From: Escherichia phage HermannAdler_Bas98
Strand: one strand, 5' to 3'
DNA length: 64,000 nt
Sequence record: PQ850608.1
Shown here: positions 2,205 to 58,555 of the stretch, piece by piece
Layout of the letters: each line of letters begins with the position of its first letter
Numbering within the stretch: the stretch's first letter is position 1
The notes under the pieces: model-generated
The model's database searches: none
What the model was told of the DNA's origin: nothing
What the model saw: only the letters and a program-made list of their open reading frames with translations
Translations under genes and position numbers: made by a program

Positions 2205-2480
2205 TATAATGACGTATCATCCGTATCAAGTAAGTTATTGTTTTCAAAAGAATCTTACGGATGATACGGATGATACGCGTTGCCGCCGTACTATATAGGA
2301 ATTCAAATAAATTAATTTAAAATTATATATCTAATTTAATTTTATTTTTTTATAAACTCTTATATATGAAAAGTATCCGTATCATCCGTATCATCCGTAG
2401 CACACCAGTGATAGCGCGGCTTATACACCGATACGGATAAAAATACGCCTCATTTTATCCGTATCATCCGTATCACACTA
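2205..2480. repeat. iteron / AT-rich module A: tandem and inverted copies of the 9-mer ATCCGTATC flanking an AT-rich core
   Basis: ATCCGTATCATCCGTATCATCCGTAG at 2376-2399, ACGGATGATACGGATGATACG at 2259-2277, further copies 2213-2228 and 2458-2476; AT-rich core 2290-2360 contains GAATTC. Confidence 0.7.
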
Positions 2481-2532: not shown

Positions 2533-2561
2533 TTGCCTAAGTTTTTTTCATTAGATATAAT
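2533..2561 (+). promoter_or_regulatory. sigma70-type promoter candidate for the scaffold/capsid operon
   Basis: TTGCCT - 17 nt - TATAAT, 30 nt upstream of the 2591 start. Confidence 0.45.
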
Positions 2562-2590
2562 ACACAATACTTATTTGAGGGTGGATGCGA

Positions 2591-30589: not shown

Positions 30590-31008
30590 GACAATTCCTC
30601 TAAATACTTGATGATGTGATGAATAGTTCCCTTCACGATTATCTCACGTTGAACGTCTGCAGTATTATAACGCTTTAATTCAATAGAAGGGTGGACTAAA
30701 TAAAACATCTTCTCAGAATCAACCTTAAGCAAAACGAATGATGGGTATCGCCAATCATTCCACGAAGAAAGGAAGCTGCACTGTCCTTTCTCAAATGCAT
30801 TTCTGAAAGGTGCAGTGGTGGCCCTTGCAGGCCACGATTCAAAGAACTTCATTTCAAGCCAAAAGCCGCGCCCTTTCCGGTTGGTGCCGATTACGTCCGG
30901 CACGCCATCACCAGTCATTGACTCGATTCGTTGAAGCTTCAATACTGATTCTGAATGCTTCTTCAAAGGTACGAATATGTATTTCTGCTCACGGTTATTT
31001 GTTGCCAT
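30586..31008 (-). CDS. VRR-NUC (PD-(D/E)xK) nuclease
   Basis: GVPDVIG...GFWLEMK motif; adjacent to SNF2 helicase. Confidence 0.55.
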   Translation of the reverse strand: MATNNREQKYIFVPLKKHSESVLKLQRIESMTGDGVPDVIGTNRKGRGFWLEMKFFESWPARATTAPFRNAFEKGQCSFLSSWNDWRYPSFVLLKVDSEKMFYLVHPSIELKRYNTADVQREIIVKGTIHHIIKYLEELS

Positions 31009-33892
31009 CTGGATACACCTGTTTGATCACGTCAACGATGAACATGTCAATGCCTTCAAGCTTACGACCTTTCATCAGGAAGAATGCGCCGTTCCCGACG
31101 TTTTCAGCAATGTACTTCCCGTACTTCTGGAACTTCTCTGGACGAATCCTGAAGCGCATTGGCGAGTCGGTCGAGTCGTCTTTGCACATAAGGTCAATGA
31201 ACTGAGTCTCAAGCTTGTTTCCATACTGGTCAAACTCTGCGTAGCGGCCATCAGCTTGAAGACCCTTTTTAAGTTTGCCGTGCTTTGTATAAATGCCGCG
31301 CTCAAGACGTTTACGGATGCGTGTTGCTTCGTTCTCGTCCGCAAGCACTTTCTTTGTCAACTTGCCGATTACTATTGCGCGCTCGTCATCACCGACTTCC
31401 TTCATCTGGCGTATTGAAGCGCCGGACGTCACACCAATCAGATACGGGTCATTATACGCCCAGCCAAACTTTGTGTGCATCTCTGTAAGGTCGCCGTATT
31501 TGACTTCAGCATTGGCCAATGCGTCCTTTTGCTTCTGCGTTAAGGTTCCGGCTTCACGCGCTTCGATGTACTTCATCGCCTTCACCATTCCGTACCCTTT
31601 CGCGTTCATAATGCCGCCGATTAGCTTTCCGTTCGCGATTGTCCAGTTCATTGAAGAGTGATCAGGGTCGATTGGAACGTAATCCACGCCTTCCTTCGCA
31701 AGTTCACGTAATATCGCAATCGTCTGGTCTTCGTCCTTAGCAGCGCGTAAGCAGGCTGCGGCAAATTCCAACGGGTAGTGTCGCTTAAGCCACAATGTCC
31801 AGTAGGTCACGACCGCGTATGACACGGAGTGTGACTTGTTAAAGCCCCATGACCCGAACGTAGCCATCGCTTGCCAAAGCTTTCTTGCATCCGCTTCCGG
31901 TACTCCGTTATTGATTGCGCCTGCAACAAAGTCCTCGCCAAGCTTGTTAAAGTATTCTTCACCCTTACGGCCTGACATCGCCTTACGCACAGCTGACGTT
32001 TTCGCCCAGTCAAATGAACCAATCTCTTTAACCACGGCCATGATTTGCTCTTGGTAAAGAAACACGCCGTAAGTCTCTTTCAAGTACGGCTCAAGCTGCG
32101 GCACGTCGTACTCAATCGGCGCACGTCCTGCCGCGCGTTCAATGTATTTCTGGGCCATACCGGATGACAACGGGCCAGGTCGACCCAAAGCTGTCAGGTT
32201 GTCGATTTTGTTAAAGTTGTCGACGTGCACAAAGTTTGTTACTGAGCGTACAGCGTCACCTTCAAACTGGAAGATGCCTGACATCTTGTTTTCGTTAAGA
32301 ATGTCAAGTACGCTTTGATCATCAAGCTTGATTCCGTAGAGCGTTTCAGCATCAATAACGCCTGTATCAGAAATAATGCCGAGAGTACGAAGGCCCAGCG
32401 CATCAAGCTTCAAAAGGTTAAGGTATTCGCTGTCAGGCTTATCGATTTGTGCAATCCCTTCCGCAGTTACAGTACAGTAATCAGAGATTGGGTCATTACA
32501 CACAATGATTCCCGCTGCGTGAACACCTGTGTGAGACGGGTGAATCTCAAGGTCACCCATGCAACGCGCGGCGTCAGGATATTTCGCCACGAACTCTTGG
32601 CCCGTGGTCGTTGTTGCAAAGGTATCCTCCAGGCCGTGGCCATAACGGGCGTCACCTGACGAGTATTCAAGCAGTGCGTTTTTAATGTTGGCCGTTTCGT
32701 GGTATCCAATGTTGAACTTCTTACCAACCTGCGCCATTACTGAGTTGGCCTTAAGCGTGTTGATGTTGCCAAGCTTTGCAACATTCATTTCGCCGTATTT
32801 CTCTTTAAGATAATCAAACACCATATAGCGTTTGGTATCTTCAAAGTCGATGTCGATGTCAGGGAGGTCGGCGCGGCTTACGTCGATGAATCGGGCAAAC
32901 AGCAGCTTATACGGGATTGGGTCCACTTCCGTGATGCCGAGGCAATAGCAAACAAGTGAACCAGCCGATGAGCCGCGAGCAGGACCGACGAGCATTTTTG
33001 TTTTTGCGAATCGTACAAGGTCCGCTACTACCAGAAAGTATGAGTCGAAATCTTTCAGCTGAATCTGGTGAATTTCTTCGTTGAAGCGGTCCTCATATTC
33101 CTGAGTCCATTCTTTGATGTGACCTGCTTTGAGACGGTACTCCATCCCCTCACGCGCAAGCTTTACCATATCACCAGCAAGGTGGATAATCGGTGCCTTG
33201 CGTAATTTCAGGTCAAGTCCGACTATGCCGTTTGCTATGTCAACAGCATTGGCCGTTGCCTGATTCAGCTCATCTTCCGTCAAGATGCCTTTAAGCTGTT
33301 TGCGCAAGTCTTCCGCGTCAACGATGCAGTGCGGCTTGACCGTGTCGCGCACTTCCCAAGCATAAGCAAAGTCAACGTGCTCAGGTGAAGGCATGTGGTT
33401 GTATCCGGTTAAAACCAGCGGCCTTCCACCGCTACGATGAGCCAATGCCTGGCGCTTTGCCAAAAGGAACGATGATGGGTTGACGTCTATATAGTCGTAG
33501 TCCTCTGGCCGCAGCAACTCCACGGCACCGCCACAGAATTTAACGACGCCATCGAGCGCCCCGAACTCTGCACGGGTAAGTCCACCGCGCTGCGTTGCAA
33601 GTGTTGTAGCGTTGTAAAAAGATTTTAAGTCAAGGGCCAATATCCAAGCCTTCGGTTTGAATCCCTTTTTCGGGTCCGCATCAGGGTCGATGATTGGAAT
33701 CTCCATTCCAAACATAGGCTTAATATCATTTTTCTGGCATTCCTTTTCCCAGCGAACGTGACCCCATGTATTGTTATCAACTAATGCCGCGACTTCGCAG
33801 CCCAACTCTTTGAGCCGTGCTATAATTTCAGGATGCCGTCCATATACTTCTTTGAACGTGTAACCGCTGCGAACTCTCAATTGTGGAAACAT
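30995..33892 (-). CDS. DNA polymerase III alpha-like (DnaE-type) replicative polymerase
   Basis: 965 aa; N-terminal PHP-like domain; polymerase core blocks. Confidence 0.75.
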   Translation of the reverse strand: MFPQLRVRSGYTFKEVYGRHPEIIARLKELGCEVAALVDNNTWGHVRWEKECQKNDIKPMFGMEIPIIDPDADPKKGFKPKAWILALDLKSFYNATTLATQRGGLTRAEFGALDGVVKFCGGAVELLRPEDYDYIDVNPSSFLLAKRQALAHRSGGRPLVLTGYNHMPSPEHVDFAYAWEVRDTVKPHCIVDAEDLRKQLKGILTEDELNQATANAVDIANGIVGLDLKLRKAPIIHLAGDMVKLAREGMEYRLKAGHIKEWTQEYEDRFNEEIHQIQLKDFDSYFLVVADLVRFAKTKMLVGPARGSSAGSLVCYCLGITEVDPIPYKLLFARFIDVSRADLPDIDIDFEDTKRYMVFDYLKEKYGEMNVAKLGNINTLKANSVMAQVGKKFNIGYHETANIKNALLEYSSGDARYGHGLEDTFATTTTGQEFVAKYPDAARCMGDLEIHPSHTGVHAAGIIVCNDPISDYCTVTAEGIAQIDKPDSEYLNLLKLDALGLRTLGIISDTGVIDAETLYGIKLDDQSVLDILNENKMSGIFQFEGDAVRSVTNFVHVDNFNKIDNLTALGRPGPLSSGMAQKYIERAAGRAPIEYDVPQLEPYLKETYGVFLYQEQIMAVVKEIGSFDWAKTSAVRKAMSGRKGEEYFNKLGEDFVAGAINNGVPEADARKLWQAMATFGSWGFNKSHSVSYAVVTYWTLWLKRHYPLEFAAACLRAAKDEDQTIAILRELAKEGVDYVPIDPDHSSMNWTIANGKLIGGIMNAKGYGMVKAMKYIEAREAGTLTQKQKDALANAEVKYGDLTEMHTKFGWAYNDPYLIGVTSGASIRQMKEVGDDERAIVIGKLTKKVLADENEATRIRKRLERGIYTKHGKLKKGLQADGRYAEFDQYGNKLETQFIDLMCKDDSTDSPMRFRIRPEKFQKYGKYIAENVGNGAFFLMKGRKLEGIDMFIVDVIKQVYPDGNK

Positions 33893-42205: not shown

Positions 42206-43288
42206 ATGGCTAGTTTAAGAGAAGAAGCAAAAATAATCGAAGAGTTTTTGACGGAACTCCAAAGAGGCATTCCAGAAGACGAACGCGTCATGACCGTGTT
42301 TGCGCCTGAAGCGACAGTGCAGACTGACGAGCGCGGCAAGAAGATCAACAGCAGCTTCTGGCCTAAGCCTTGGAAGTTGGGCAAGTCGCTCATGCAGCAC
42401 CAAAACGGCTATGCGTGCATCAGTTCAATGCGTAAGTCTCCCAACCCAAAGACGGGTGAGATGCGATACTGGCGTACAGAGTCGGCCTTTGGTCACGGCA
42501 TGGCGATGATGGTCGACGACATCGGTCACGGTAAAGGGTCCAAAGGCGATTTAGATTTGGAATTCTTTTTTGAGCGACTGAAGCCGACTGTCATCGTCGA
42601 GACTTCACCGAACAACCACCAGCTTTGGTACTTCTTTAAAGAACCGATTGACCATCTTATTCAGTTCAAAGCGTTCCTTGGGTCTTTCGTTAACATGGTA
42701 CTCAAGAAGGGCGGCGACAACACGATTAAAGACGTAACGCGCGTGGGCCGTGTTCCTGGGTGCATCAACAACAAGCGTGTGACTCACGACGGCCCCTATA
42801 AATATGTCGATGAGAACGGCGACCCGTTCCGCTGCCGACTTGTCCATGCAGACTACTCATTGCGCTACACCATCGAAGACATTTGTCAGGCATTTGGCTT
42901 TCACGTCGTCATGCCGCAAAAGCGTGAGATTCAAATTGACGTCGATGAATACAAGTATGATGCTGTTTGGTATAAAATAGCCCAGCAGATTCTATCGCGC
43001 AACAAAATGGGTGAAGGGTCTGATGGCGACGTCATCGAGAACATGTCAGGCAAGTGCCGCATAATCTGTCCTTGGGGTGAAGAACACACCAACGGCGACC
43101 CGTATGGCGCTTACTTTCGCGGCCCTATTCCTGGTGCAGAACATGAGTTTGTGTTCGGTTGCGCCCACGACTGTCACCGGAAAGGGGAAGGCAAGAAAGG
43201 TTGGACTGCTTTTGTTGAAGCAATCGTCATGCCTTATATTGAGAATCAACTTGACATGATAAATCGTCGTGCAGGTGGCATAAAATAG
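42206..43288 (+). CDS. primase-polymerase (AEP-family) protein with C-terminal Cys/His cluster
   Basis: MVDDIGHGKG, SPNNHQLWYFF and TRVGRVPGCINNK blocks resemble prim-pol motifs; C-terminal CPWGEEH...GCAHDCH. Confidence 0.5.
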   Translation: MASLREEAKIIEEFLTELQRGIPEDERVMTVFAPEATVQTDERGKKINSSFWPKPWKLGKSLMQHQNGYACISSMRKSPNPKTGEMRYWRTESAFGHGMAMMVDDIGHGKGSKGDLDLEFFFERLKPTVIVETSPNNHQLWYFFKEPIDHLIQFKAFLGSFVNMVLKKGGDNTIKDVTRVGRVPGCINNKRVTHDGPYKYVDENGDPFRCRLVHADYSLRYTIEDICQAFGFHVVMPQKREIQIDVDEYKYDAVWYKIAQQILSRNKMGEGSDGDVIENMSGKCRIICPWGEEHTNGDPYGAYFRGPIPGAEHEFVFGCAHDCHRKGEGKKGWTAFVEAIVMPYIENQLDMINRRAGGIK

Positions 43289-44597: not shown

Positions 44598-46268
44598 ATG
44601 TCAATTAATAATGACAATCTTCCAGAGGATACAGGTGATGAATTTGGTGCAATCTTTGACGAAATTCAAGATGCAGGCGTTTCGGAAGAAATGCAGGCAG
44701 CAGAGCAGCAAGGCACCAGAGCTAAAATCAGCCTTCAACACAAAGCCGTTGAAAAAGATTCAGAGCGCATGGAATGCTACGGTGAAGAAGACTTGGTTGA
44801 AAGAGCACGCTTGCTCGCCTCACTTCAGGTAATCAAGTTCCCTCACTACAAGCCTACCAAAGATGACTTCGTTCTACAGGCAGACCGGACGAGTGACATG
44901 AACCGTTATGCGGTTTTCGACGCGTTGTTTGATAAGGGAAGTGGCGTTGTTCCATTCCCTCACAAAGATACTTTTCGTGGGCGCTTAGTCGACCATCGCG
45001 GCGAAACTTTCACCGACCGGACGTTGGAAGTCACAGAGATAGTTGCCGCTGTCGACGCAGCAGGTCTGTCCAACCCAAACTCACGTCAGGTAGCTCAATC
45101 CTATAAGGAATGGGCTATGCGTTATCAGCGTGACGACCTGATGGACTTCTTCTACAAGAAGCTGCCTGAATGGGACGGTACTGCGCGCATTGAGAAATAC
45201 CTTATCGAGCTATTCCGACCGTTCGATACAGAGTTAAACCGACAAATCGGTGTGTATTTTTGGCTATCGCTCTACAACCGACTGACCAACCCTGGCTGTC
45301 AAGCGCCAATCTCCATCGCGCTCATCGGCGGCCAGAACGCAGGGAAGAGTTATTTTAGCAAGCTACTTTGCGAAGCTATTATGAACGACCGCCACGCAAC
45401 ACCGATTCCGTTGAACTTAGCCGCGCAGAACTTCAACCCGTTCTTGCGAGCTATTACGGGTCGCTCAATTATCGCGAACGTCGGCGAGATGACAGGCTTT
45501 AAAAAGGCCGACATCGAAAACATGAAAGCATTCCTGACTAAGACGGAAGATGACCTGGACTTCAAATTTGAAGATACTCAGGTTAAACCACGCCAGTGGA
45601 TTGCTATCATGGACGGCAACGAATACGCAGGCATGCAGCGTGATGACACGGGCAACCGTCGTGTGTATCCTATCTTTGTTGGCCAACTCGCTGACAAGGA
45701 CGGGCAACCGAACTGGTCGAAAGATTTCCAAGCTGACCTTTCCACTTTGAAAGAAGACGTTTGGCAGTTGATGGCTGAGTGCGCTGCATGGATGGAGAAG
45801 CACGGCGAAGCAGGCTATAACGCGTTTGTTGGTGAAACATCTCGCATGCTTACTGAGTTCAGTAAAAACGAAATGGAACGTGCACGCGGCGTTATTCGTG
45901 ATGAGATGGTTGACAACGACCTTGTTGAAGTCGTCATCACCGCGCCTTATGACCGACATCACAGCGGACGCTGGCACATCACCAGTGGTGCTATTGCTAT
46001 GGGATTCAGAGCGAAGTGCGGCAAGTCGCCTTTCTCTCGTACCCTTGCGCCGCACATGTCGAAGCTTGGTTTTGAGCCTGCGACCTATCGCAACCAGCGC
46101 GGTTACTTTACGCCGCTGATTAAGAATGAAGCAGGGGAATACATTTCCGACTTGATGACCATCTTAGCGTATCTTATCCGTGATGAGTCTGACCCTGAAG
46201 ATATTGAATTCTTGAAGAAGGTTATCGAGCGTAAACGTTCTTTGGGAAGAGATAAGGATGAATTCTGA
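44598..46268 (+). CDS. VirE/D5-like P-loop NTPase (putative primase-associated helicase)
   Basis: Walker A GGQNAGKS; downstream acidic Walker B-like region; AGGAGG RBS; partner of prim-pol gene. Confidence 0.55.
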   Translation: MSINNDNLPEDTGDEFGAIFDEIQDAGVSEEMQAAEQQGTRAKISLQHKAVEKDSERMECYGEEDLVERARLLASLQVIKFPHYKPTKDDFVLQADRTSDMNRYAVFDALFDKGSGVVPFPHKDTFRGRLVDHRGETFTDRTLEVTEIVAAVDAAGLSNPNSRQVAQSYKEWAMRYQRDDLMDFFYKKLPEWDGTARIEKYLIELFRPFDTELNRQIGVYFWLSLYNRLTNPGCQAPISIALIGGQNAGKSYFSKLLCEAIMNDRHATPIPLNLAAQNFNPFLRAITGRSIIANVGEMTGFKKADIENMKAFLTKTEDDLDFKFEDTQVKPRQWIAIMDGNEYAGMQRDDTGNRRVYPIFVGQLADKDGQPNWSKDFQADLSTLKEDVWQLMAECAAWMEKHGEAGYNAFVGETSRMLTEFSKNEMERARGVIRDEMVDNDLVEVVITAPYDRHHSGRWHITSGAIAMGFRAKCGKSPFSRTLAPHMSKLGFEPATYRNQRGYFTPLIKNEAGEYISDLMTILAYLIRDESDPEDIEFLKKVIERKRSLGRDKDEF

Positions 46269-53128: not shown

Positions 53129-53550
53129 TACAGCGTTACGACCTGACATATGACGTGGCATCAGACGATTTCGCCGTCACTCCCGTTCCAGAAAGTCATG
53201 AAGGACGTTTTGTTGCATATGAGGACTATGAATCACTACTCAAGCTTAATGAGTCGCTAACAAAAGAGATTGAGCAATACCGCGAGCGCATCAAAGCCGC
53301 TGAAGATGTTATCAAGCTTTTTAGCGAGGCTGTTGAGAAATACAAGGAGCGCAACGTGCCGATTAAGGAGGAAGCGTGGACCGTGTGGTTTGGTGGCGTG
53401 AATCCGGTGCCTGGGAAGATGGTTGAGTTTGAATTACTCAACGGTTATAAATCAAAAGGTGCTGTTCCTTCGGATAGTTTGACATGGGATAAAGTCACAA
53501 GCCCGACTGGTGCAAAGATTGTTGCTTATCGGGTCGTTAAGGAGGGGTGA
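53125..53550 (+). CDS. hypothetical protein sharing a C-terminal module with 51740-52243
   Basis: Coiled-coil N-terminus; same C-terminal NPVPGK...AYRVV module. Confidence 0.55.
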   Translation: MIQRYDLTYDVASDDFAVTPVPESHEGRFVAYEDYESLLKLNESLTKEIEQYRERIKAAEDVIKLFSEAVEKYKERNVPIKEEAWTVWFGGVNPVPGKMVEFELLNGYKSKGAVPSDSLTWDKVTSPTGAKIVAYRVVKEG

Positions 53551-53999
53551 TGGGTAACAAGCTTATCGCCGCTGGTTGGGCCATACCGAAGTGGGCTCAT
53601 CGTGCGCACTACTTTGATGAAGGAGAAGTGCAAAGCCTTTGCGGTCGCGCAACATACTTTGGTGATGAGCGCGTCAGCGGCGATTACATCGACTCGCTTT
53701 TAGGCAAAGGTGATTGCAAGAAATGTCAGGATATATTAAGAGATATTCTAACGCAAAAAGGACTGCTTGAGCTTGATGAGTCGGAGGAAGTAATAGAGCT
53801 TAAGCTTGAAGCCAATCACCTTATTAATATGTTCAAGAATTATTACTCAACGAATATGCGCTCAAAGATGCGTGAGGAAGTAATAAAAGAGGTGCTCACT
53901 TACAATCCGTTAAGGATGAATAAAACTAAACTGAAGAAGTTTAATGCAATAGTAAGAAAGGAATTTAGACGGCTTGGAGTGAAGAATTTTATATTTTAA
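53547..53999 (+). CDS. hypothetical protein
   Basis: Last gene of + strand operon; followed by terminator. Confidence 0.5.
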   Translation: MMGNKLIAAGWAIPKWAHRAHYFDEGEVQSLCGRATYFGDERVSGDYIDSLLGKGDCKKCQDILRDILTQKGLLELDESEEVIELKLEANHLINMFKNYYSTNMRSKMREEVIKEVLTYNPLRMNKTKLKKFNAIVRKEFRRLGVKNFIF

Positions 54000-54016
54000 T
54001 TATGATTAATGTTAAG

Positions 54017-54037
54017 AGGGCCGATTGGCCCTTTTTA
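54017..54037 (+). terminator. rho-independent terminator
   Basis: GGGCC-GATT-GGCCC hairpin followed by TTTTT; then TTTGCCT resembling cassette -35. Confidence 0.55.
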
Positions 54038-54529
54038 TTTGCCTGTGTAATGGGAGGCTTTTGTGGTTATTTACGATTCAAGGCTGTAATTTAAGAGAGC
54101 GAAAATATTATAATAATTTATCAAGATTATTGCATATTGTGGCAATCAACGTTTATACGTATTTATGACAGTTTAATCCACTAAATAATACGGATAGAAC
54201 AGTGAGGAAAATACAGCGGTGTATTTTAGTGTAAATATTGAATCAAAAATAAATAATTATGGTGCTATTATATACGCAGATTGTTTGTAATTTATAGGAT
54301 ATTTTATCGTGGAGTATTGGCTAACGGTGCGTTAGCCGTGGGTCTTGGTGCTTGTGGTGTTGATGCTCAGAATTTTAATAATGTTTTTAGTTTTAGTAAT
54401 CGTAGTCAATGATGATACGTATAAGAAAATGAGAGTCACCCCTTCACAGGATATTGTACCGTGGCCCTGTGGTGCGCCGCGCCTGGGATTGCTGGTATAC
54501 ACTGGTGCTATTTTGCCGCGAAGGCAGTC

Positions 54530-54790
54530 ATTCATACGTATCATGACGTATCATTGGGCTATTGATTTATAAGGAAAAATACGCTGATACGGATGATACG
54601 GGTGCAAACATAATATATATAGAATTCCAGAAAATTAATTAACTCCATTTTGAATTAATTTAAATTAATTTTTTTCTACATCCTCATACTTATACTAAAC
54701 TTATATTCATACGTATCATCCGTAAGATATAAGTAAAAACAAGGACTTGCGGCAATACGGATGATACGTCATGATACGCTTCGACCAGCC
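54530..54790. repeat. iteron / AT-rich module B (homologous to 2205-2480)
   Basis: CATACGTATCATGACGTATCAT, GATACGGATGATACG, AT-rich core with GAATTC and AATTAATTTAAATTAATTTTTTT, then CATACGTATCATCCGTA and AATACGGATGATACGTCATGATACG. Confidence 0.7.
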
Positions 54791-54943
54791 AGCAGCGGCT
54801 AAGTCATTGATTTGCATAGCAAGCGGCGAAAGGGATGGATTTCTTTTATACGTATCAAACAGTACACCACGCACCACGGTCCGCAATCCTATTTGCAATA
54901 TGATTTGTGTACGTTTATAGCCATAATGAACATCAATCTGCAC

Positions 54944-54972
54944 TTGAATATAATGTCCATCCATTGTATAAT
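54944..54972 (+). promoter_or_regulatory. sigma70-type promoter candidate
   Basis: TTGAAT - 17 nt - TATAAT. Confidence 0.45.
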
Positions 54973-54992
54973 TCACACTATTAATTTGCACT

Positions 54993-55481
54993 ATGGGATT
55001 TTGCACTATGAGTCAAGATTATGTAGCGATGCCTGAAGACTTTGAAGACCCGCGATTCGCAGAGCACAATCAGGCTTTATTCGATGAGTTCATTGACCTT
55101 GTTATTCAGGGTCATGACATGCGCGCAGCTTTTGCACTAGTATTTGGAATGGAAGTTGCAACGGATAACTACACTGGCCAGCGAATCCTTTGCACGCAAC
55201 GCAATCCATACTACAAGATGCGCTTCAAAAAGCGTATGGAAGAGATGCCACTCAAGGATTTGTGGAGCGTAAAAGGTGCAATTCACAATTTGGTCAAGCT
55301 TGTGCGTGATCCAGAAGTCGCGGCGTCAGCCAAGCTTAATGCTATTCGTGAACTGAATATCATCTACGGCATCACGATGATTGATGAAAACGGCAATAGT
55401 AAAATGGGCCGTTCTATGGACGATTTCTACAAGGATTTTGGAGAGGCTGCCAAAGAAGGAGAGCAATTCTCCCGCCACTAG
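54993..55481 (+). CDS. hypothetical protein (possible helix-turn-helix; terminase small subunit-like)
   Basis: 162 aa ORF; no Shine-Dalgarno; the repeat motif TTTGCACTATG lies on its start region; functional call speculative. Confidence 0.4.
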   Translation: MGFCTMSQDYVAMPEDFEDPRFAEHNQALFDEFIDLVIQGHDMRAAFALVFGMEVATDNYTGQRILCTQRNPYYKMRFKKRMEEMPLKDLWSVKGAIHNLVKLVRDPEVAASAKLNAIRELNIIYGITMIDENGNSKMGRSMDDFYKDFGEAAKEGEQFSRH

Positions 55482-55500
55482 CCAATTTGCACTATAAAAC

Positions 55501-55534
55501 GGCCCTAGAACACATGTTCTCCACTTCTAGGGCC
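55501..55534 (+). terminator. stem-loop (possible terminator)
   Basis: GGCCCTAGAA - 14 nt - TTCTAGGGCC; no T tract. Confidence 0.35.
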
Positions 55535-55595
55535 ATCGGTAATACGACGGGGAAGGTCGCACCCATAAACGCGTTAGAAAGTGTATTATTATAAG

Positions 55596-55859
55596 TCATC
55601 TTTTAGTCGCTTTACGTAACAATTTACGACCTTCAACCGTCCAATCGAACGACTCCACCAGCAGATTCGCACTATAACCTAAGACGATGCGCCCTTTCTC
55701 GTTATCGACCCGCCAACAAGTCTCGAATAGCATTCGATTTGCACTATTAACTATTGCCGCAACGCGCGTAGGGTAAGCGCAATTTGCACTATGGTCGTAA
55801 AGGGATAAGGTGCGACCACTTCCGATGGACAATGTAGCGATGAGAATAAGCGTATTCAT
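55596..55859 (-). CDS. hypothetical protein (doubtful ORF within repeat array)
   Basis: 87 aa ORF with GGTGG RBS, but contains three motif copies (translated as SAN). Confidence 0.3.
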   Translation of the reverse strand: MNTLILIATLSIGSGRTLSLYDHSANCAYPTRVAAIVNSANRMLFETCWRVDNEKGRIVLGYSANLLVESFDWTVEGRKLLRKATKR

Positions 55860-55909
55860 AAGCCACCAATTTGCACTATGAAAAGCGACCCCGAAGGGCC
55901 GCCATTCGA

Positions 55910-56536
55910 TTAGATAATCTGGAAGGTGTAGGACTTGTTGCCGAACTCGAAGTTCAAGCGTCCAGCTTCTTTAAGCTTCATGCGGAAGCGAATGTGCTTG
56001 CTATCCGGTAATCCCAGCGCGGCGAAGGCTACGCGGACCGATTTGAACTCGCCTACACCCTCGACCATAACGCCGTTACGGGTGAGACGCTTTTGCGCCA
56101 CTTCCTTATTATCCCAACTTTTTGCAATACCTTCGCTATTCGAACGGCGATGGGAAGGAGTTCCATTTTGCACTACGCAATTTGCACTATCGTTTAAGCC
56201 GCTCTTAACGAAGGCTTCATACTCTTCATCGCTCATCGCGTCGAGTTCTTCCTGGGTCGGCTCAGCCTTTTTAACGACCGCACGCGCCTTATGCGTTTTT
56301 ACATCACTGGACACTTCCTCACGCGGCTTCGCGTCGGGAATGGGCGATTCGTTGGACGGCTCATCGAGCGCGTTTAAGGACTCGATTAACGCGATTACGC
56401 GAGTCTCGGCGGTCCGGCGGTCCGCAAATTTCTTAATCGGCTTCGAACCGGAATTTGCATTATAAAATGCAACGAGGTCGGCGGTCTTAGTTGCGATAAC
56501 GTCGCCGCTAGTAGAAAAGCGATTTAAGCTAACCAT
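55910..56536 (-). CDS. hypothetical protein (candidate DNA-binding protein of the island)
   Basis: 208 aa; RBS context AGGAGTTTATTATGG identical to the next gene; two motif copies inside coding sequence. Confidence 0.5.
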   Translation of the reverse strand: MVSLNRFSTSGDVIATKTADLVAFYNANSGSKPIKKFADRRTAETRVIALIESLNALDEPSNESPIPDAKPREEVSSDVKTHKARAVVKKAEPTQEELDAMSDEEYEAFVKSGLNDSANCVVQNGTPSHRRSNSEGIAKSWDNKEVAQKRLTRNGVMVEGVGEFKSVRVAFAALGLPDSKHIRFRMKLKEAGRLNFEFGNKSYTFQII

Positions 56537-56616
56537 AATAAACTCCTATTTGTTAGGGCGCTAGGCGCGAAAGAATTTTATTAAAGCGCCGCGCACGACG
56601 CTCTAAAAATCCTCTC

Positions 56617-56931
56617 TTACTCTTCGTCGTCTTCGATTAATTCGAGGGCGAAGGCGTAAGCTTTGCTATCGTAATTAACTAAAACGGCGAGTTCGAACTC
56701 GTTAATAAACGCCGTTTTACCGCATAAATTTAATTCCGCATCGACTTCGAAGAATCCGTTTTCGTCGCGCTCTAAGCGAGAAGCAGCGAGTTGCTCGATT
56801 ACCGTCGCGTCGTTAATTTCTTCGCCTAAGCGAACGCCGGAGAATTTCGCGAGAATTTCGCCGTAAGTAAGCGTAACGCCCTGGACTTCGGCGGCGGCGT
56901 TTTCGAGGGTAAAGCGGGTAACGATAGCCAT
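56617..56931 (-). CDS. small very acidic protein (104 aa)
   Basis: 22 Asp/Glu vs 7 Lys/Arg; AGGAGTTTATTATGG start context; C-ending codon bias distinct from neighbouring early genes. Confidence 0.6.
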   Translation of the reverse strand: MAIVTRFTLENAAAEVQGVTLTYGEILAKFSGVRLGEEINDATVIEQLAASRLERDENGFFEVDAELNLCGKTAFINEFELAVLVNYDSKAYAFALELIEDDEE

Positions 56932-56999
56932 AATAAACTCCTAGTTGGGAGAGGCGTTAACGACCTATTCGTTAACTCATCCCGTCCCGATATGAGTAC

Positions 57000-57027
57000 A
57001 TTATAATATAGTGTAGAAAAAAGTAAA
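57000..57027 (-). promoter_or_regulatory. promoter cassette copy (minus strand) driving 56617-56931
   Basis: Minus strand reads GTGCTTTACT - 16 nt - TATAAT ... ATATCGGGACGGG, matching the two plus-strand cassettes. Confidence 0.5.
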
Positions 57028-57071
57028 GCACTTTTTCGATAAAAATGCGATAAATTATTTTATCTTTTTTC

Positions 57072-57099
57072 TTTACTTCTTCGTACACTCGCGTATACT
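57072..57099 (+). promoter_or_regulatory. promoter cassette copy driving 57156-57458
   Basis: CTTTACTTCTTCGTACACT ... TATACT (16 nt spacer) ... TTTATATCGAGACGGG. Confidence 0.5.
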
Positions 57100-57155
57100 T
57101 GTTTATATCGAGACGGGCGATGGCCCTTTCTTCTACTAGCATCGGGAGCTTTATT

Positions 57156-57458
57156 ATGACTACTTTAATCTCTTCCATCCTTACTTACGACGAAGACCGC
57201 TTAACCGTTCGCTCTCTTATCGCCGCCGTTAACGCGGAACTAGAATCTAGCGCCATTAAGGTCCGCGCGGTCGCCTTCATCGGCCTTTCCTTCGACGATA
57301 TGAAGTATGCCGAACGTAGCGCCATCCGCTTCGCGAAGACCGACGACGAAGCCGTTACCCTTATCGAGACGGTTACGCCGCGCGGCGAAGCGTTAATTAT
57401 CGTCGAGTATATCGACGTAGAAGGCGATAAATCTTATAAACATTTTATCGCAGAATAA
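57156..57458 (+). CDS. small acidic protein (100 aa)
   Basis: 18 Asp/Glu vs 11 Lys/Arg; C-ending codon bias. Confidence 0.6.
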   Translation: MTTLISSILTYDEDRLTVRSLIAAVNAELESSAIKVRAVAFIGLSFDDMKYAERSAIRFAKTDDEAVTLIETVTPRGEALIIVEYIDVEGDKSYKHFIAE

Positions 57459-57470
57459 CGAAAAAAGTGC

Positions 57471-57499
57471 TTTACTTCTTCGTACACTAAGACTATAAT
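57471..57499 (+). promoter_or_regulatory. promoter cassette copy driving 57567-57857
   Basis: GTGCTTTACTTCTTCGTACACT ... TATAAT (17 nt spacer) ... TTTATATCGAGAGGGG. Confidence 0.55.
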
Positions 57500-57566
57500 G
57501 TTTTATATCGAGAGGGGATGAGGTAGCGAATAGGTCACTACCCTCCCGACTAACTAGGAGAATATT

Positions 57567-57857
57567 ATGATTACTTTAGCCGCTATCCGTTCCGCTCGCG
57601 TCGAAACTTCCGAAAACTCTAACGTATTTGGCGAAAAACTTAAAAACGTTTATCTCTTTAACGTAGATGCGACTATCGAGGAGCTTCACAGTCCTATCGA
57701 TTTTAGCGAATTTACGGAACTCGAAGAGGAAGATATTTCTACCTTCCGCGTTACTATCGAAGGCAAGGTTTATTTTGCTACGGAGTTCGGCGGCGAATAT
57801 CTCGCGGTATCCGAAGGCGAAGGCCGTTACTCTTTCTTTAAAATCGTTTCCTTATAA
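57567..57857 (+). CDS. small acidic protein (96 aa)
   Basis: 18 Asp/Glu vs 8 Lys/Arg; TAGGAG RBS. Confidence 0.6.
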   Translation: MITLAAIRSARVETSENSNVFGEKLKNVYLFNVDATIEELHSPIDFSEFTELEEEDISTFRVTIEGKVYFATEFGGEYLAVSEGEGRYSFFKIVSL

Positions 57858-57877
57858 TACCCTTCCGTTACTAATAG

Positions 57878-57900
57878 GCCGCGCTTAGTCGCGGCTTTTC
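57878..57900 (+). terminator. rho-independent terminator
   Basis: GCCGCG-CTTAGT-CGCGGC followed by TTTT. Confidence 0.6.
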
Positions 57901-57904
57901 TTCG

Positions 57905-58555
57905 TCCCTATCTCGATGCGCTCCTACGCGAAAACTCCTTTATCCTTCCCTTCGTCGTCGCATAATCTTCTTCGAGATGCGTCTTAGTTCGCATAACAGG
58001 TATTACGTTAAATGGAGAACATCGCGTAAGTCCTTGTTTTATATAGACACCTATATCGGACCGTTAGGGCGGGTCGCGTAAGTCGTTGTTTTATAAAGGC
58101 ACAAAACTTTCCCTTCGTTCCGAACTAAAACGAGAAATATGCCGACCCTTCGCCCGAAAATAGTACGTATGCGAAATTACATTCATCTCGAATAATCCCT
58201 CCCGATATTATCCTACACGCAATCATTCGCTTTCGAATCATTATGCTTCATATTATTATGCGTCGAATCATTCGCTTTCGAATTGTAACGCTGGAAACTG
58301 TAACGTCGATTGATTATTGCGTTCGTGTGGTTTTTATGGCATGGGTCTTTTGGTGCGTTTTGCTACTTGATGGAATTTGCGGTACACTAATCAAAATACG
58401 ACACATTTGGTCCACTAACTTTTCAAAGAAAAAGTCCTAGACAGTACCGTACTATTTTGTACCCACAGGAAATTTGCAGTACACTCCTGAGCGGCAGGCA
58501 AAATAAAGGGCCGCACTAAGCGACCCACGATTCACGGTTAAATCAGCAACACCCA
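57905..58555. repeat. noncoding repeat-rich region
   Basis: No credible ORF; duplicated GCGTAAGTC(C/G)TTGTTTTATA, duplicated AATCATTCGCTTTCGAAT (ATTCG...CGAAT arms), duplicated TTTGC(G/A)GTACACT. Confidence 0.55.

What the first reader, a model, noticed from the sequence alone, without database searches (positions are those of the whole stretch)
54530..54790. Second copy of the iteron / AT-rich module, next to the motif array
Same element as at 2205-2480, listed separately for coordinates. It lies within 250 bp of the AATTTGCACTAT array and the acidic-protein island, so three distinct repeat systems are packed into about 4 kb. That density is typical of a genome end or a replication/packaging control region.
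Basis: seen in the sequence. Interest (0 to 1): 0.55.

Follow-up and report, generated by a model that had tools for sequence, protein, structure and literature searches.

The report
Origin-like repeat module holding the genome end
The repeat-flanked, AT-rich stretch at 54.5-54.8 kb is a real control element of this E. coli phage: the packaged DNA starts in its centre, and it looks like a replication origin that also serves as the packaging start site, with a second copy 52 kb away.

Summary
The window is a Wifcevirus, a PB1-like E. coli myovirus. At 54530-54790 (outliers 54411-54857), nine TGATACG iterons form two inverted-repeat arms around a 110-bp core that is 80% A+T. The stretch at 2205-2480 is a true paralogue.

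Five linear GenBank records of relatives begin at the base equal to window 54647, inside the core. One of them was opened at a PhageTerm-predicted boundary. The roughly 3.7-kb direct terminal repeat therefore spans 54647-58350 (58431 in WFC). The small-terminase gene lies 360 bp downstream, at 55008-55481.

The same two-module layout occurs in Serratia phage MTx and Pseudomonas phage Pa193, each with its own iterons. In both, the record start or PhageTerm terminus falls in the core of the B copy.

The phage encodes a full-length homologue of the SaPI Rep self-loading helicase. SaPI Rep origins are iterons in opposite orientation around an AT-rich centre.

Best reading (confidence about 0.55): both modules are Rep-type origins, and copy B also carries a unique, invariant cleavage block (TTAACTCC|ATTTTGAA) that makes it the packaging start. 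All binding and initiation steps are inferred, not shown. I found no paper describing the element.

The parts
54411..54429 (.). Outlying left iteron (GATGATACGTAT...). It forms an inverted pair with 54841-54857.
   Evidence: (I2, 17 nt, 88%).
54530..54555 (-). Outer-left iterons: ACGTATCAT twice (54536-54544, 54546-54554).
   Evidence: (D5; I1 is 18 nt, 100% complementary to 54761-54778).
54583..54600 (+). Inner-left iterons: GCTGATACG and GATGATACG.
   Evidence: (I5). With the outer-left iterons this forms a hairpin-capable arm (z = -3.7).
54601..54710 (.). AT-rich core (80% A+T). It is the second least stable stretch of the window and the presumed unwinding region.
54639..54654 (+). TTAACTCC|ATTTTGAA block, specific to copy B. 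The left virion end (first base of the terminal repeat) is 54647.
   Evidence: Five linear records start here. The block is invariant in WFC, WFH and a relative whose TerS is 69% identical, while the flanks diverge. It is unique in the window and absent from module A.
54711..54724 (-). Inner-right iteron: ACGTATCATCCGTA.
   Evidence: (I3, I5).
54755..54778 (+). Outer-right iterons: GATGATACG and CATGATACG.
   Evidence: (I1, I3). The right arm folds as a hairpin (z = -3.9).
54841..54857 (.). Outlying right iteron, partner of 54411-54429.
   Evidence: (I2).
2205..2480 (.). Module A, the paralogous copy. Iterons lie at 2213-2228 (-), 2256-2277 (+), 2378-2399 (-), 2430-2442 (+) and 2453-2475 (-). 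The core is 2278-2377. It fills the 415-bp gap upstream of the prohead protease gene.
   Evidence: It is 96-99.7% conserved in all 28 Wifcevirus records.
54647..58350 (+). Direct terminal repeat (about 3.7 kb). The right end is 58350 by homology to WFH and Mansfield, and 58431 by homology to WFC.
55008..55481 (+). Small terminase (TerS) gene.
   Evidence: A profile of 7 homologues hits PDB 7UXE (phage E217 TerS) at E = 1.5e-45. The Mansfield record also annotates it as TerS.
54892..56463 (+). One-directional TTTGCACTAT array (12 copies with at most 1 mismatch), just inside the left end and around terS. It is a candidate terminase recognition array.
   Evidence: It is conserved as TGCACTAT in the distant relative. 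Its function is inferred.
44598..46268 (+). VapE / SaPI-Rep-like self-loading helicase, the candidate iteron-binding initiator.
   Evidence: Pfam PF05272 at E = 1.6e-28. phmmer hit to 7PDS at E = 4e-11. Foldseek hit to 7pds at E = 4e-16, TM 0.61, about 480 columns. The model shows a winged-helix-like fold at 436-505.
42206..43288 (+). RepB'-type (RSF1010-like) primase.
   Evidence: Pfam PF16793 at E = 2.2e-36. PHROG 'DNA primase'.
54927..54972 (+). Two overlapping sigma-70-like promoters reading into terS.
   Evidence: 10 of 12 matches each. This is a consensus match only.

Best explanation
The module is a dyad-symmetric cis element of the Rep/iteron origin type. Short lineage-specific iterons (here GATGATACG) point in opposite directions on both sides of a very AT-rich core.

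Inferred mechanism: the phage's SaPI-Rep-like self-loading helicase (44598-46268) binds the iterons through its C-terminal winged-helix domain. It melts the core and loads onto it. The RepB'-type primase (42206-43288) then primes synthesis. The genome would carry two such origins, A (2205-2480) and B (54530-54790).

Copy B has a second role. It contains a unique, invariant block, TTAACTCC|ATTTTGAA, where terminase makes the cut that creates the left end of virion DNA. That cut is the left boundary of the 3.7-kb direct terminal repeat. The small-terminase gene and a one-directional TTTGCACTAT array sit immediately inside that end and probably give terminase its specificity for B over A.

Shown here: the architecture, the paralogy, the position of the terminus (by homology to deposited records), the identities of TerS, the helicase and the primase, and conservation of the two-module layout across genera. 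Inferred: every binding, melting, priming and cleavage step, and any coupling between origin firing and repeat duplication.
For: 1. Architecture. There are two or more iterons in opposite orientation on each side of an AT-rich centre. That is how SaPI Rep origins are described (PMC9371898).

2. Initiator. The phage encodes a full-length structural homologue of SaPI1 Rep1 with a winged-helix-like C-terminal fold. That region is among the most divergent parts of the protein: 25% mean pairwise identity against 58% for the ATPase domain (the C-terminal tail is lower still, 15%). This fits lineage-specific iterons.

3. Stability. The cores of A and B are the two least stable stretches in 64 kb.

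4. Conservation. Two paralogous modules at the same two syntenic places occur in Serratia phage MTx (iterons CGAAAAGT) and Pseudomonas phage Pa193 (iterons GGTAATTTGG). Within each genome, A and B share iterons. In a metagenomic relative (L032) only the copy between helicase and terS was read; its iterons are TTATCCGCAAGA.

5. Position. The B copy lies directly downstream of the helicase gene in Pa193, MTx and Xylella phage MATE2, and one gene downstream in L032, as the SaPI origin does. In MATE2 it stays next to the helicase and is separated from terS by 2.6 kb of genes.

6. Terminus. Five linear Wifcevirus records start at window 54647. PhageTerm boundaries in Mansfield and MTx fall in the B core. 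The cut-site block is invariant where the flanks diverge, and it is missing from A.

7. TerS lies 360 bp downstream.
Against: No experiment or read data for this genome was available, so the terminus is transferred by homology.

In this window the module is 8.2 kb from the helicase gene and adjacent to terS. That suits a packaging role as well as an origin role.

A terminus in the centre of the element is what a pac site would show, so the iterons could be terminase sites rather than origin sites.

A second origin in the middle of the late structural operon is odd and unexplained.

The iterons are 9-mers, whereas SaPI iterons are 5-6-mers.

GC skew only follows transcription direction and says nothing about origins.

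The winged-helix assignment rests on secondary-structure order in a predicted model and on a whole-chain match. It was not tested by a domain-level comparison.
Confidence: 0.55

Rival explanations
1. The module is purely a packaging signal, like the pac sites of P1 or SPP1. Terminase or an accessory protein binds the iterons on both sides and cuts between them. Module A is a second or vestigial recognition site with no origin function.
For: The terminus lies in the core. terS is adjacent in Wifcevirus. From my own knowledge, P1 pac (hexamer repeats flanking the cleavage region) and SPP1 pacL-pacC-pacR have a similar repeat-cut-repeat layout. Essoh et al. saw a single fixed read end and no repeat in PB1-like phages, which is pac-like behaviour.
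Against: Module A has the same iterons and core, yet none of the records examined places a terminus there, and it lacks the invariant cut block. In Xylella phage MATE2 the module sits next to the helicase and 2.6 kb from terS, and there is no A copy, although TerS and TerL are retained. E217 TerS showed no appreciable DNA binding in vitro (PMC9611059). The B-specific TTTGCACTAT array is a better candidate for terminase specificity.
Confidence: 0.22
2. The module is a transcriptional control region. The iterons are operators for a phage regulator that controls the sigma-70-like promoters just downstream, those of the protease operon and terS.
For: Both copies are followed within about 60-170 bp by consensus-like promoters reading rightwards: TTGCCT-17-TATAAT at 2534-2562 and 54927-54972. 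MTx and Pa193 show the same pattern.
Against: This does not explain the terminus in the core, the extreme AT core, the dyad symmetry over about 250-450 bp, or the strand-polar GCGGC pattern. In MATE2 the module is not next to terS or the protease gene. Iterons occur nowhere else in the genome.
Confidence: 0.1
3. The module is a selfish or mobile palindromic repeat (MITE-like), or an anchoring or partition site, with two copies by chance insertion.
For: It has inverted-repeat ends, exists in two copies and encodes nothing.
Against: Both copies are at the same syntenic positions in three genera, with sequences that differ between genera but match within a genome. That indicates in-place co-evolution rather than mobility. 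There is no similarity to plasmids or to other phage groups.
Confidence: 0.04

Closest known systems
SaPI (staphylococcal pathogenicity island) replication origin with its Rep self-loading helicase
   Same: Short iterons lie in opposite orientation on both sides of an AT-rich centre. The element encodes a VapE/D5-like hexameric helicase with a C-terminal winged-helix domain. In relatives the origin-like module sits directly downstream of the helicase gene. Iteron sequence is specific to each lineage.
   Different: The host element is a virulent 68-kb myovirus, not a satellite. The iterons are 9-mers, not 5-6-mers. There are two copies per genome. In this genome the module is 8.2 kb from the helicase gene. 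One copy contains the virion DNA end. Binding and melting are untested.
Phage P4 ori plus crr, bound by the alpha primase-helicase (from my own knowledge, not checked here)
   Same: Two separate cis regions carry the same iterons, and a primase-helicase type initiator is encoded by the element.
   Different: P4 alpha is a single fused protein. The P4 regions are 4.5 kb apart, not 52 kb (or 16 kb across the genome end). P4 uses cos ends that are unrelated to its ori.
P1 pac and SPP1 pacL-pacC-pacR packaging sites (from my own knowledge)
   Same: Repeated short motifs lie on both sides of the stretch in which terminase makes the first cut, and the site is close to the small-terminase gene.
   Different: Those phages package by headfuls and give permuted genomes. 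Here a fixed 3.7-kb terminal repeat is predicted. Here the repeat module is duplicated at a place where the records examined place no end.
T7-type terminal repeats with end-proximal replication elements (from my own knowledge)
   Same: The genome is non-permuted with direct terminal repeats, and origin-like elements sit at a repeat boundary. This suggests a link between replication and repeat duplication.
   Different: The T7 repeat is 160 bp and uses phage RNA-polymerase promoters, not iterons. No homology was found.
RSF1010 oriV (iterons, AT-rich stretch, ssiA/ssiB hairpins primed by RepB')
   Same: The phage encodes a RepB'-type primase domain. Each arm of the module can fold into a long hairpin on either strand.
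   Different: No RepC-like iteron binder was found. The hairpins follow trivially from inverted iterons. There is no sequence similarity to ssi sites.

Membership tests
Rep/iteron origin of the SaPI type | At least two iterons on each side of an AT-rich centre, pointing in opposite directions | tested here: met
   Searches give the iteron positions and orientations. One search gives the AT-rich core. The definition is from PMC9371898.
Rep/iteron origin of the SaPI type | The element encodes a Rep-family self-loading helicase with a C-terminal winged-helix DNA-binding domain | tested here: met
   phmmer hit to 7PDS at E = 4e-11. Foldseek hit to 7pds at E = 4e-16 over about 480 columns. The predicted model has helix-strand-helix-helix-strand-strand order at 436-505. 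The winged-helix part is supported only by the model.
Rep/iteron origin of the SaPI type | The origin lies immediately downstream of the rep gene | tested here: not met
   In this window the helicase gene ends at 46268 and the module starts at 54411, with 8.2 kb of small genes between. The feature is met in Pa193, MTx and MATE2, and L032 has one gene between.
Rep/iteron origin of the SaPI type | Rep binds the iterons and melts the AT-rich region, and replication starts there | not testable with these tools
   This needs EMSA or footprinting, permanganate probing, and marker-frequency or 2D-gel mapping.
Terminase initiation site (pac, or terminal-repeat boundary) | A fixed virion DNA end maps inside the element | tested here: met
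   Shown by homology only. Five linear records start at window 54647. PhageTerm-based annotation exists for Mansfield and MTx.
Terminase initiation site (pac, or terminal-repeat boundary) | The small terminase recognises the site | not testable with these tools
   TerS is identified, but binding is unknown. E217 TerS did not bind DNA appreciably in vitro.
Headful pac site (P1 / SPP1 / P22 type) | One fixed end, then headful cuts that give a permuted, terminally redundant population | tested here: not met
   For Wifcevirus both ends are reported as fixed. WFH and Mansfield end at the same base, and a terminal repeat is reported. For Pbunavirus the literature is contradictory.
Lambda-type cos site | Cohesive single-stranded ends and no terminal repeat | tested here: not met
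   Records carry a 3.7-kb direct repeat at both ends.
RSF1010-type oriV | A RepB'-type primase acts on hairpin ssi signals on opposite strands | tested here: inconclusive
   The primase domain is present. The arms fold as hairpins with z = -2.9 to -5.8, but that follows from iteron inversion. There is no ssi similarity.
Known RNA family or plasmid origin | Sequence or structure match to a curated family or to plasmid DNA | tested here: not met
   Rfam gave no meaningful hit. There was no match in 72,556 plasmids.

The most novel reading that the evidence does not exclude
A single cis element is both a replication origin and the packaging start. The Rep-like helicase opens the AT-rich core at the left boundary of the terminal repeat, and terminase cuts the opened DNA at TTAACTCC|ATTTTGAA. 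A fork launched rightwards from the same spot copies the 3.7-kb repeat, so each concatemer unit regains two repeats.

The second copy, upstream of the protease gene, would be an obligatory partner origin, as crr is for P4 ori. The strand-polar GCGGC motifs would be the priming sites of the RepB'-type primase.

This would be a conserved mechanism across PB1-like myoviruses, and it would explain the conflicting reports on their genome ends.
Probability: 0.25. Interest if true: 0.75.

Novelty: new variant of a known kind. Interest (0 to 1): 0.58.

Why it matters
PB1-like phages (Pbunavirus, Wifcevirus, Myosmarvirus) are widely isolated and are used in phage therapy and in the BASEL collection. 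I found no paper that maps their origins of replication, and reports on their genome ends conflict.

This analysis points to a specific conserved DNA element and a specific protein, the SaPI-Rep-like helicase, as the likely origin/initiator pair. It places the fixed genome end inside that element. That gives direct, cheap experiments: gel shifts, plasmid origin tests and read-start analysis.

It also offers a possible route to how phages with long terminal repeats regenerate them. For genome engineering and rebooting, it matters which non-coding stretches must be kept intact and where the physical ends lie.

Tried and rejected
- GC skew as an origin indicator. It only tracks transcription direction.
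- PHROGs and Pfam on the ten ORFs around the module. Only unnamed families came back.
- A third module copy in the window. There is none. The '3-4 places per record' in BLAST output come from the palindromic module matching itself in both orientations.
- A second copy of the cut-site block at the right repeat end or in module A. There is none within 3 mismatches.
- A shared motif CACTAACTTTTC at the MTx left end and the Wifcevirus WFC-type right end. It did not recur at the MTx right end or at the WFH/Mansfield right end, so I treat it as chance.
- A DnaA-box reading of the iterons. TTATCCGTA matches TTATCCACA at 7 of 9 positions, and the L032 iteron TTATCCGCA at 8 of 9. It is not consistent across lineages and was dropped as a main explanation.
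- An Rfam scan and a plasmid search. Both were negative.
- The Lokareddy 2022 E217 terminase paper could not be read because it is not held.
- Several fetched loci were not available to the Python sandbox, so some sequences were pasted in by hand.

Full report
**What the window is.** Megablast of 53500-56500 finds 28 phage records, all Wifcevirus, which are E. coli/Shigella myoviruses of about 68 kb. The best is ManiWeber_Bas99 at 97.9% identity. These phages are distant relatives of the Pseudomonas PB1-like phages, genus Pbunavirus.

The sequence at 54530-54790 carries copies of the 9-mer GATGATACG, whose 7-mer core is TGATACG. They form a near-palindrome:
- two copies in minus orientation at 54536-54554;
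- two in plus orientation at 54583-54600;
- a 110-bp core at 54601-54710 that is 80% A+T;
- one minus copy at 54712-54720;
- two plus copies at 54760-54778.

An outlying inverted pair at 54411-54429 / 54841-54857 extends the symmetry to 447 bp.

TGATACG occurs 23 times in the window: 8 in 2213-2475, 9 in 54413-54857 and 6 in the remaining 63 kb. About 8.3 are expected overall, and either cluster has P of about 1e-17.

The stretch at 2205-2480 has the same plan and aligns with module B at 68.6% over 207 nt (E = 8e-13). It aligns in both orientations, because each module is its own near-reverse-complement. There is no third copy.

The two cores are the two most AT-rich and least stable stretches of the 64-kb window. 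Each arm can fold as a 14-18-bp hairpin when single-stranded (z = -2.9 to -5.8). That is a direct consequence of the inverted iterons.

**The genome end lies in the core of module B.** Two linear GenBank records, WFC (72,472 bp) and WFH (71,283 bp), carry the same genes at both ends. The offsets give terminal repeats of 3,784 and 3,701 bp, and the source paper states 'a terminal repeat of about 3.7 kb each'.

Both records start with ATTTT(G/A)AA. In the internal copy this is preceded by ...AATTAACTCC. An alignment shows that WFC, WFH, Mansfield, Ro157lw and SP13 all begin at the base homologous to window 54647. Mansfield's record annotates a 3,673-bp 'direct terminal repeat predicted by PhageTerm', and the paper says the genome was opened at that boundary.

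The right end of the repeat is the same base in WFH and Mansfield (GGGTCTTT|TGGTG, window 58350). It lies 81 bp further on in WFC (window 58431). This is a transfer by homology, because no reads of this genome were available.

**The cut site is constrained, and only in B.** I aligned module B from the window, WFC, WFH and a Logan metagenome relative whose TerS is only 69% identical. The longest invariant run, 13 columns, is TTAACTCCATTTT, which spans the end. The sequence to its left is almost unalignable apart from the iterons. This block is unique in the window and absent from module A.

**The neighbouring gene is the small terminase.** The ORF at 55008-55481 has no Pfam hit. A profile of seven homologues hits PDB 7UXE, the decameric small terminase of Pbunavirus E217, at E = 1.5e-45.

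Between the end and this gene, and for 1.8 kb inwards, there are 12 copies of TTTGCACTAT (at most 1 mismatch). All are on the + strand, whatever the gene orientation. The array is kept as TGCACTAT in the distant relative. It is specific to the B side and one-directional, so it is a reasonable candidate for the terminase recognition array. This is inference.

**The two-module layout is conserved in other genera, each with its own iterons.**
- *Serratia phage MTx* (Myosmarvirus; protease 53% identical) has a 470-bp gap upstream of its protease gene. In it, CGAAAAGT / ACTTTTCG repeats sit in inverted arms around an AT-rich core. A paralogous stretch spans the join between the end and the start of its record, which was opened at a PhageTerm-predicted 3,566-bp repeat.
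- *Pseudomonas phage Pa193* (Pbunavirus) shows the same with GGTAATTTGG-type repeats. One copy is upstream of the protease gene. The other spans the ends of its linear record, directly after the helicase gene and 600 bp before terS.
- *A metagenomic relative* (L032) has the module between helicase and terS, with TTATCCGCAAGA iterons. Only this one copy was read there.
- *Essoh et al.* reported 'a single fixed termination' of reads and no repeat in PB1-like phages. A record from that study (Ab28) opens 628 nt upstream of terS, the same layout as Pa193. Later papers argue for headful packaging.
- *Xylella phage MATE2* (Carpasinavirus) keeps TerS, TerL, protease, primase and helicase. It has no module upstream of terS or of the protease gene. 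Instead, one analogous element with GATTAAATAC-type repeats around an AT-rich core lies directly after the helicase gene, 2.6 kb of genes away from terS.

**A second, family-wide signal.** The pentamer GCGGC is not enriched in number. In every module, however, it lies on the minus strand to the left of the core and on the plus strand to the right. The count is 9 of 9 in the window. In five modules from other genomes, examined after the pattern was noticed, it is 30 of 31 (binomial P = 1.5e-8). I cannot explain this. Priming sites are one possibility.

**Who could act on the iterons.** The window encodes a RepB'-type primase (PF16793, E = 2e-36), a Pol III alpha-type polymerase and a VapE-like helicase.

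The helicase matches SaPI1 Rep1 (PDB 7PDS) by sequence at E = 4e-11. A confident model (pLDDT 82.6) matches it by fold over about 480 columns (E = 4e-16, TM 0.61).

According to PMC9371898:
- SaPI Rep proteins are self-loading helicases and initiators.
- A C-terminal winged-helix domain recognises short iterons.
- The origin lies just downstream of rep.
- An AT-rich region sits at its centre, with at least two iterons on each side pointing in opposite directions.

The model has a helix-strand-helix-helix-strand-strand unit at 436-505. That region is among the most divergent parts of the protein across 30 homologues, at 25% against 58% for the ATPase domain; only the C-terminal tail is lower, at 15%. 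This is what one expects if it sets iteron specificity. It is supportive, not proof.

**Putting it together.** The part shared by A and B (iterons, AT-rich core, polar GCGGC) fits a Rep-type origin. The parts unique to B fit a terminase initiation site: the invariant cut block, the one-directional array and the adjacent terS.

I therefore read B as an origin-type element that also serves as the packaging start and left repeat boundary, and A as a second origin-type element. An origin at the repeat boundary could also supply the fork needed to duplicate the repeat before cutting, as has been proposed for T7 (my own knowledge). That step is speculation.

**Main rival.** The iterons could be terminase sites, making the whole element a pac-type signal. 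For it: the central terminus and the closeness to terS. Against it: module A has the same iterons but no reported end and no cut block; MATE2 keeps the element next to the helicase rather than terS; and E217 TerS lacked DNA binding in vitro.

**Other rivals.** A transcriptional-operator reading explains the downstream promoters but explains neither the terminus nor the MATE2 arrangement. Mobility is excluded by conserved synteny combined with lineage-specific sequence.

**Novelty.** The terminal repeat itself is on record. I found no paper that describes these modules, their paralogy, their conservation across genera, or a link to the Rep-like helicase. The library does not hold every paper; Ceyssens 2009 and Lokareddy 2022 could not be read.

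The kind of element is known, namely an iteron origin and a packaging site. The duplicated, dual-use arrangement in a virulent myovirus family is a new variant.

Noticed in passing
window 54892-56463: TTTGCACTAT occurs 12 times (at most 1 mismatch), always on the + strand, in the first 1.8 kb inside the left genome end. It runs across genes of both orientations, overlaps the terS start codon and follows its stop. Only one exact copy lies elsewhere (36634, - strand). It is conserved as TGCACTAT in a distant relative. It is a candidate terminase recognition array.
   Followed up: partly
window modules A and B; L012, L022, L026-L030: The pentamer GCGGC is strand-polar around every module core: minus strand on the left, plus strand on the right. 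The count is 9/9 in the window and 30/31 in five modules of other genera (P = 1.5e-8). This holds although the iterons differ completely between genera. It is unexplained.
   Followed up: partly
window 57900-58520: A non-coding stretch of about 600 bp at the right end of the terminal repeat carries its own repeats: TCGCGTAAGTC(C/G)TTGTTTTATA twice and a 28-nt inverted pair. The deposited right ends disagree by 81 bp: 58350 for WFH and Mansfield, 58431 for WFC.
   Followed up: partly
window 56617-57857: Three small acidic ORFs (104, 119 and 96 aa; pI 4.1, 4.9 and 4.4) lie inside the terminal repeat. They have no family match. Their position near the genome end suggests early host-takeover or DNA-mimic proteins.
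   Followed up: no
L018 1-340 (IMG/VR contig 3300045988_152943), equal to window 2251: A 68.5-kb metagenome-assembled contig of a near-identical phage breaks inside the left arm of module A, between the outer and inner iterons. This is probably an assembly break at the inverted repeat, but it could reflect a real discontinuity.
   Followed up: no
window 54050-54585: The left flank of module B, including its outer-left arm, is hypervariable among Wifcevirus genomes. BLAST splits here and only query positions 86-311 align in most records. The right half and the cut block are conserved.
   Followed up: partly
window 2534-2562: A near-consensus sigma-70 promoter (TTGCCT, 17 nt, TATAAT) sits 59 bp after module A and reads into the prohead protease gene. 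The same arrangement is seen in MTx and Pa193.
   Followed up: no
L035 25300-25700 (Xylella phage MATE2): This Carpasinavirus has one analogous iteron/AT-rich element directly after its primase-helicase gene. It has none upstream of terS or of the protease gene. The element can therefore be single and uncoupled from terS.
   Followed up: partly
L032 6720-7190: The iteron of this metagenomic relative, TTATCCGCA(AGA), matches the E. coli DnaA-box consensus TTATCCACA at 8 of 9 positions. The window's variant TTATCCGTA matches at 7 of 9. Whether host DnaA is involved was not examined.
   Followed up: no
window 42206-43288 and 30995-33892: The replication set is unusual for a virulent phage. It combines an RSF1010 RepB'-type primase domain and a bacterial Pol III alpha-type polymerase with the SaPI-Rep-like helicase.
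   Followed up: partly
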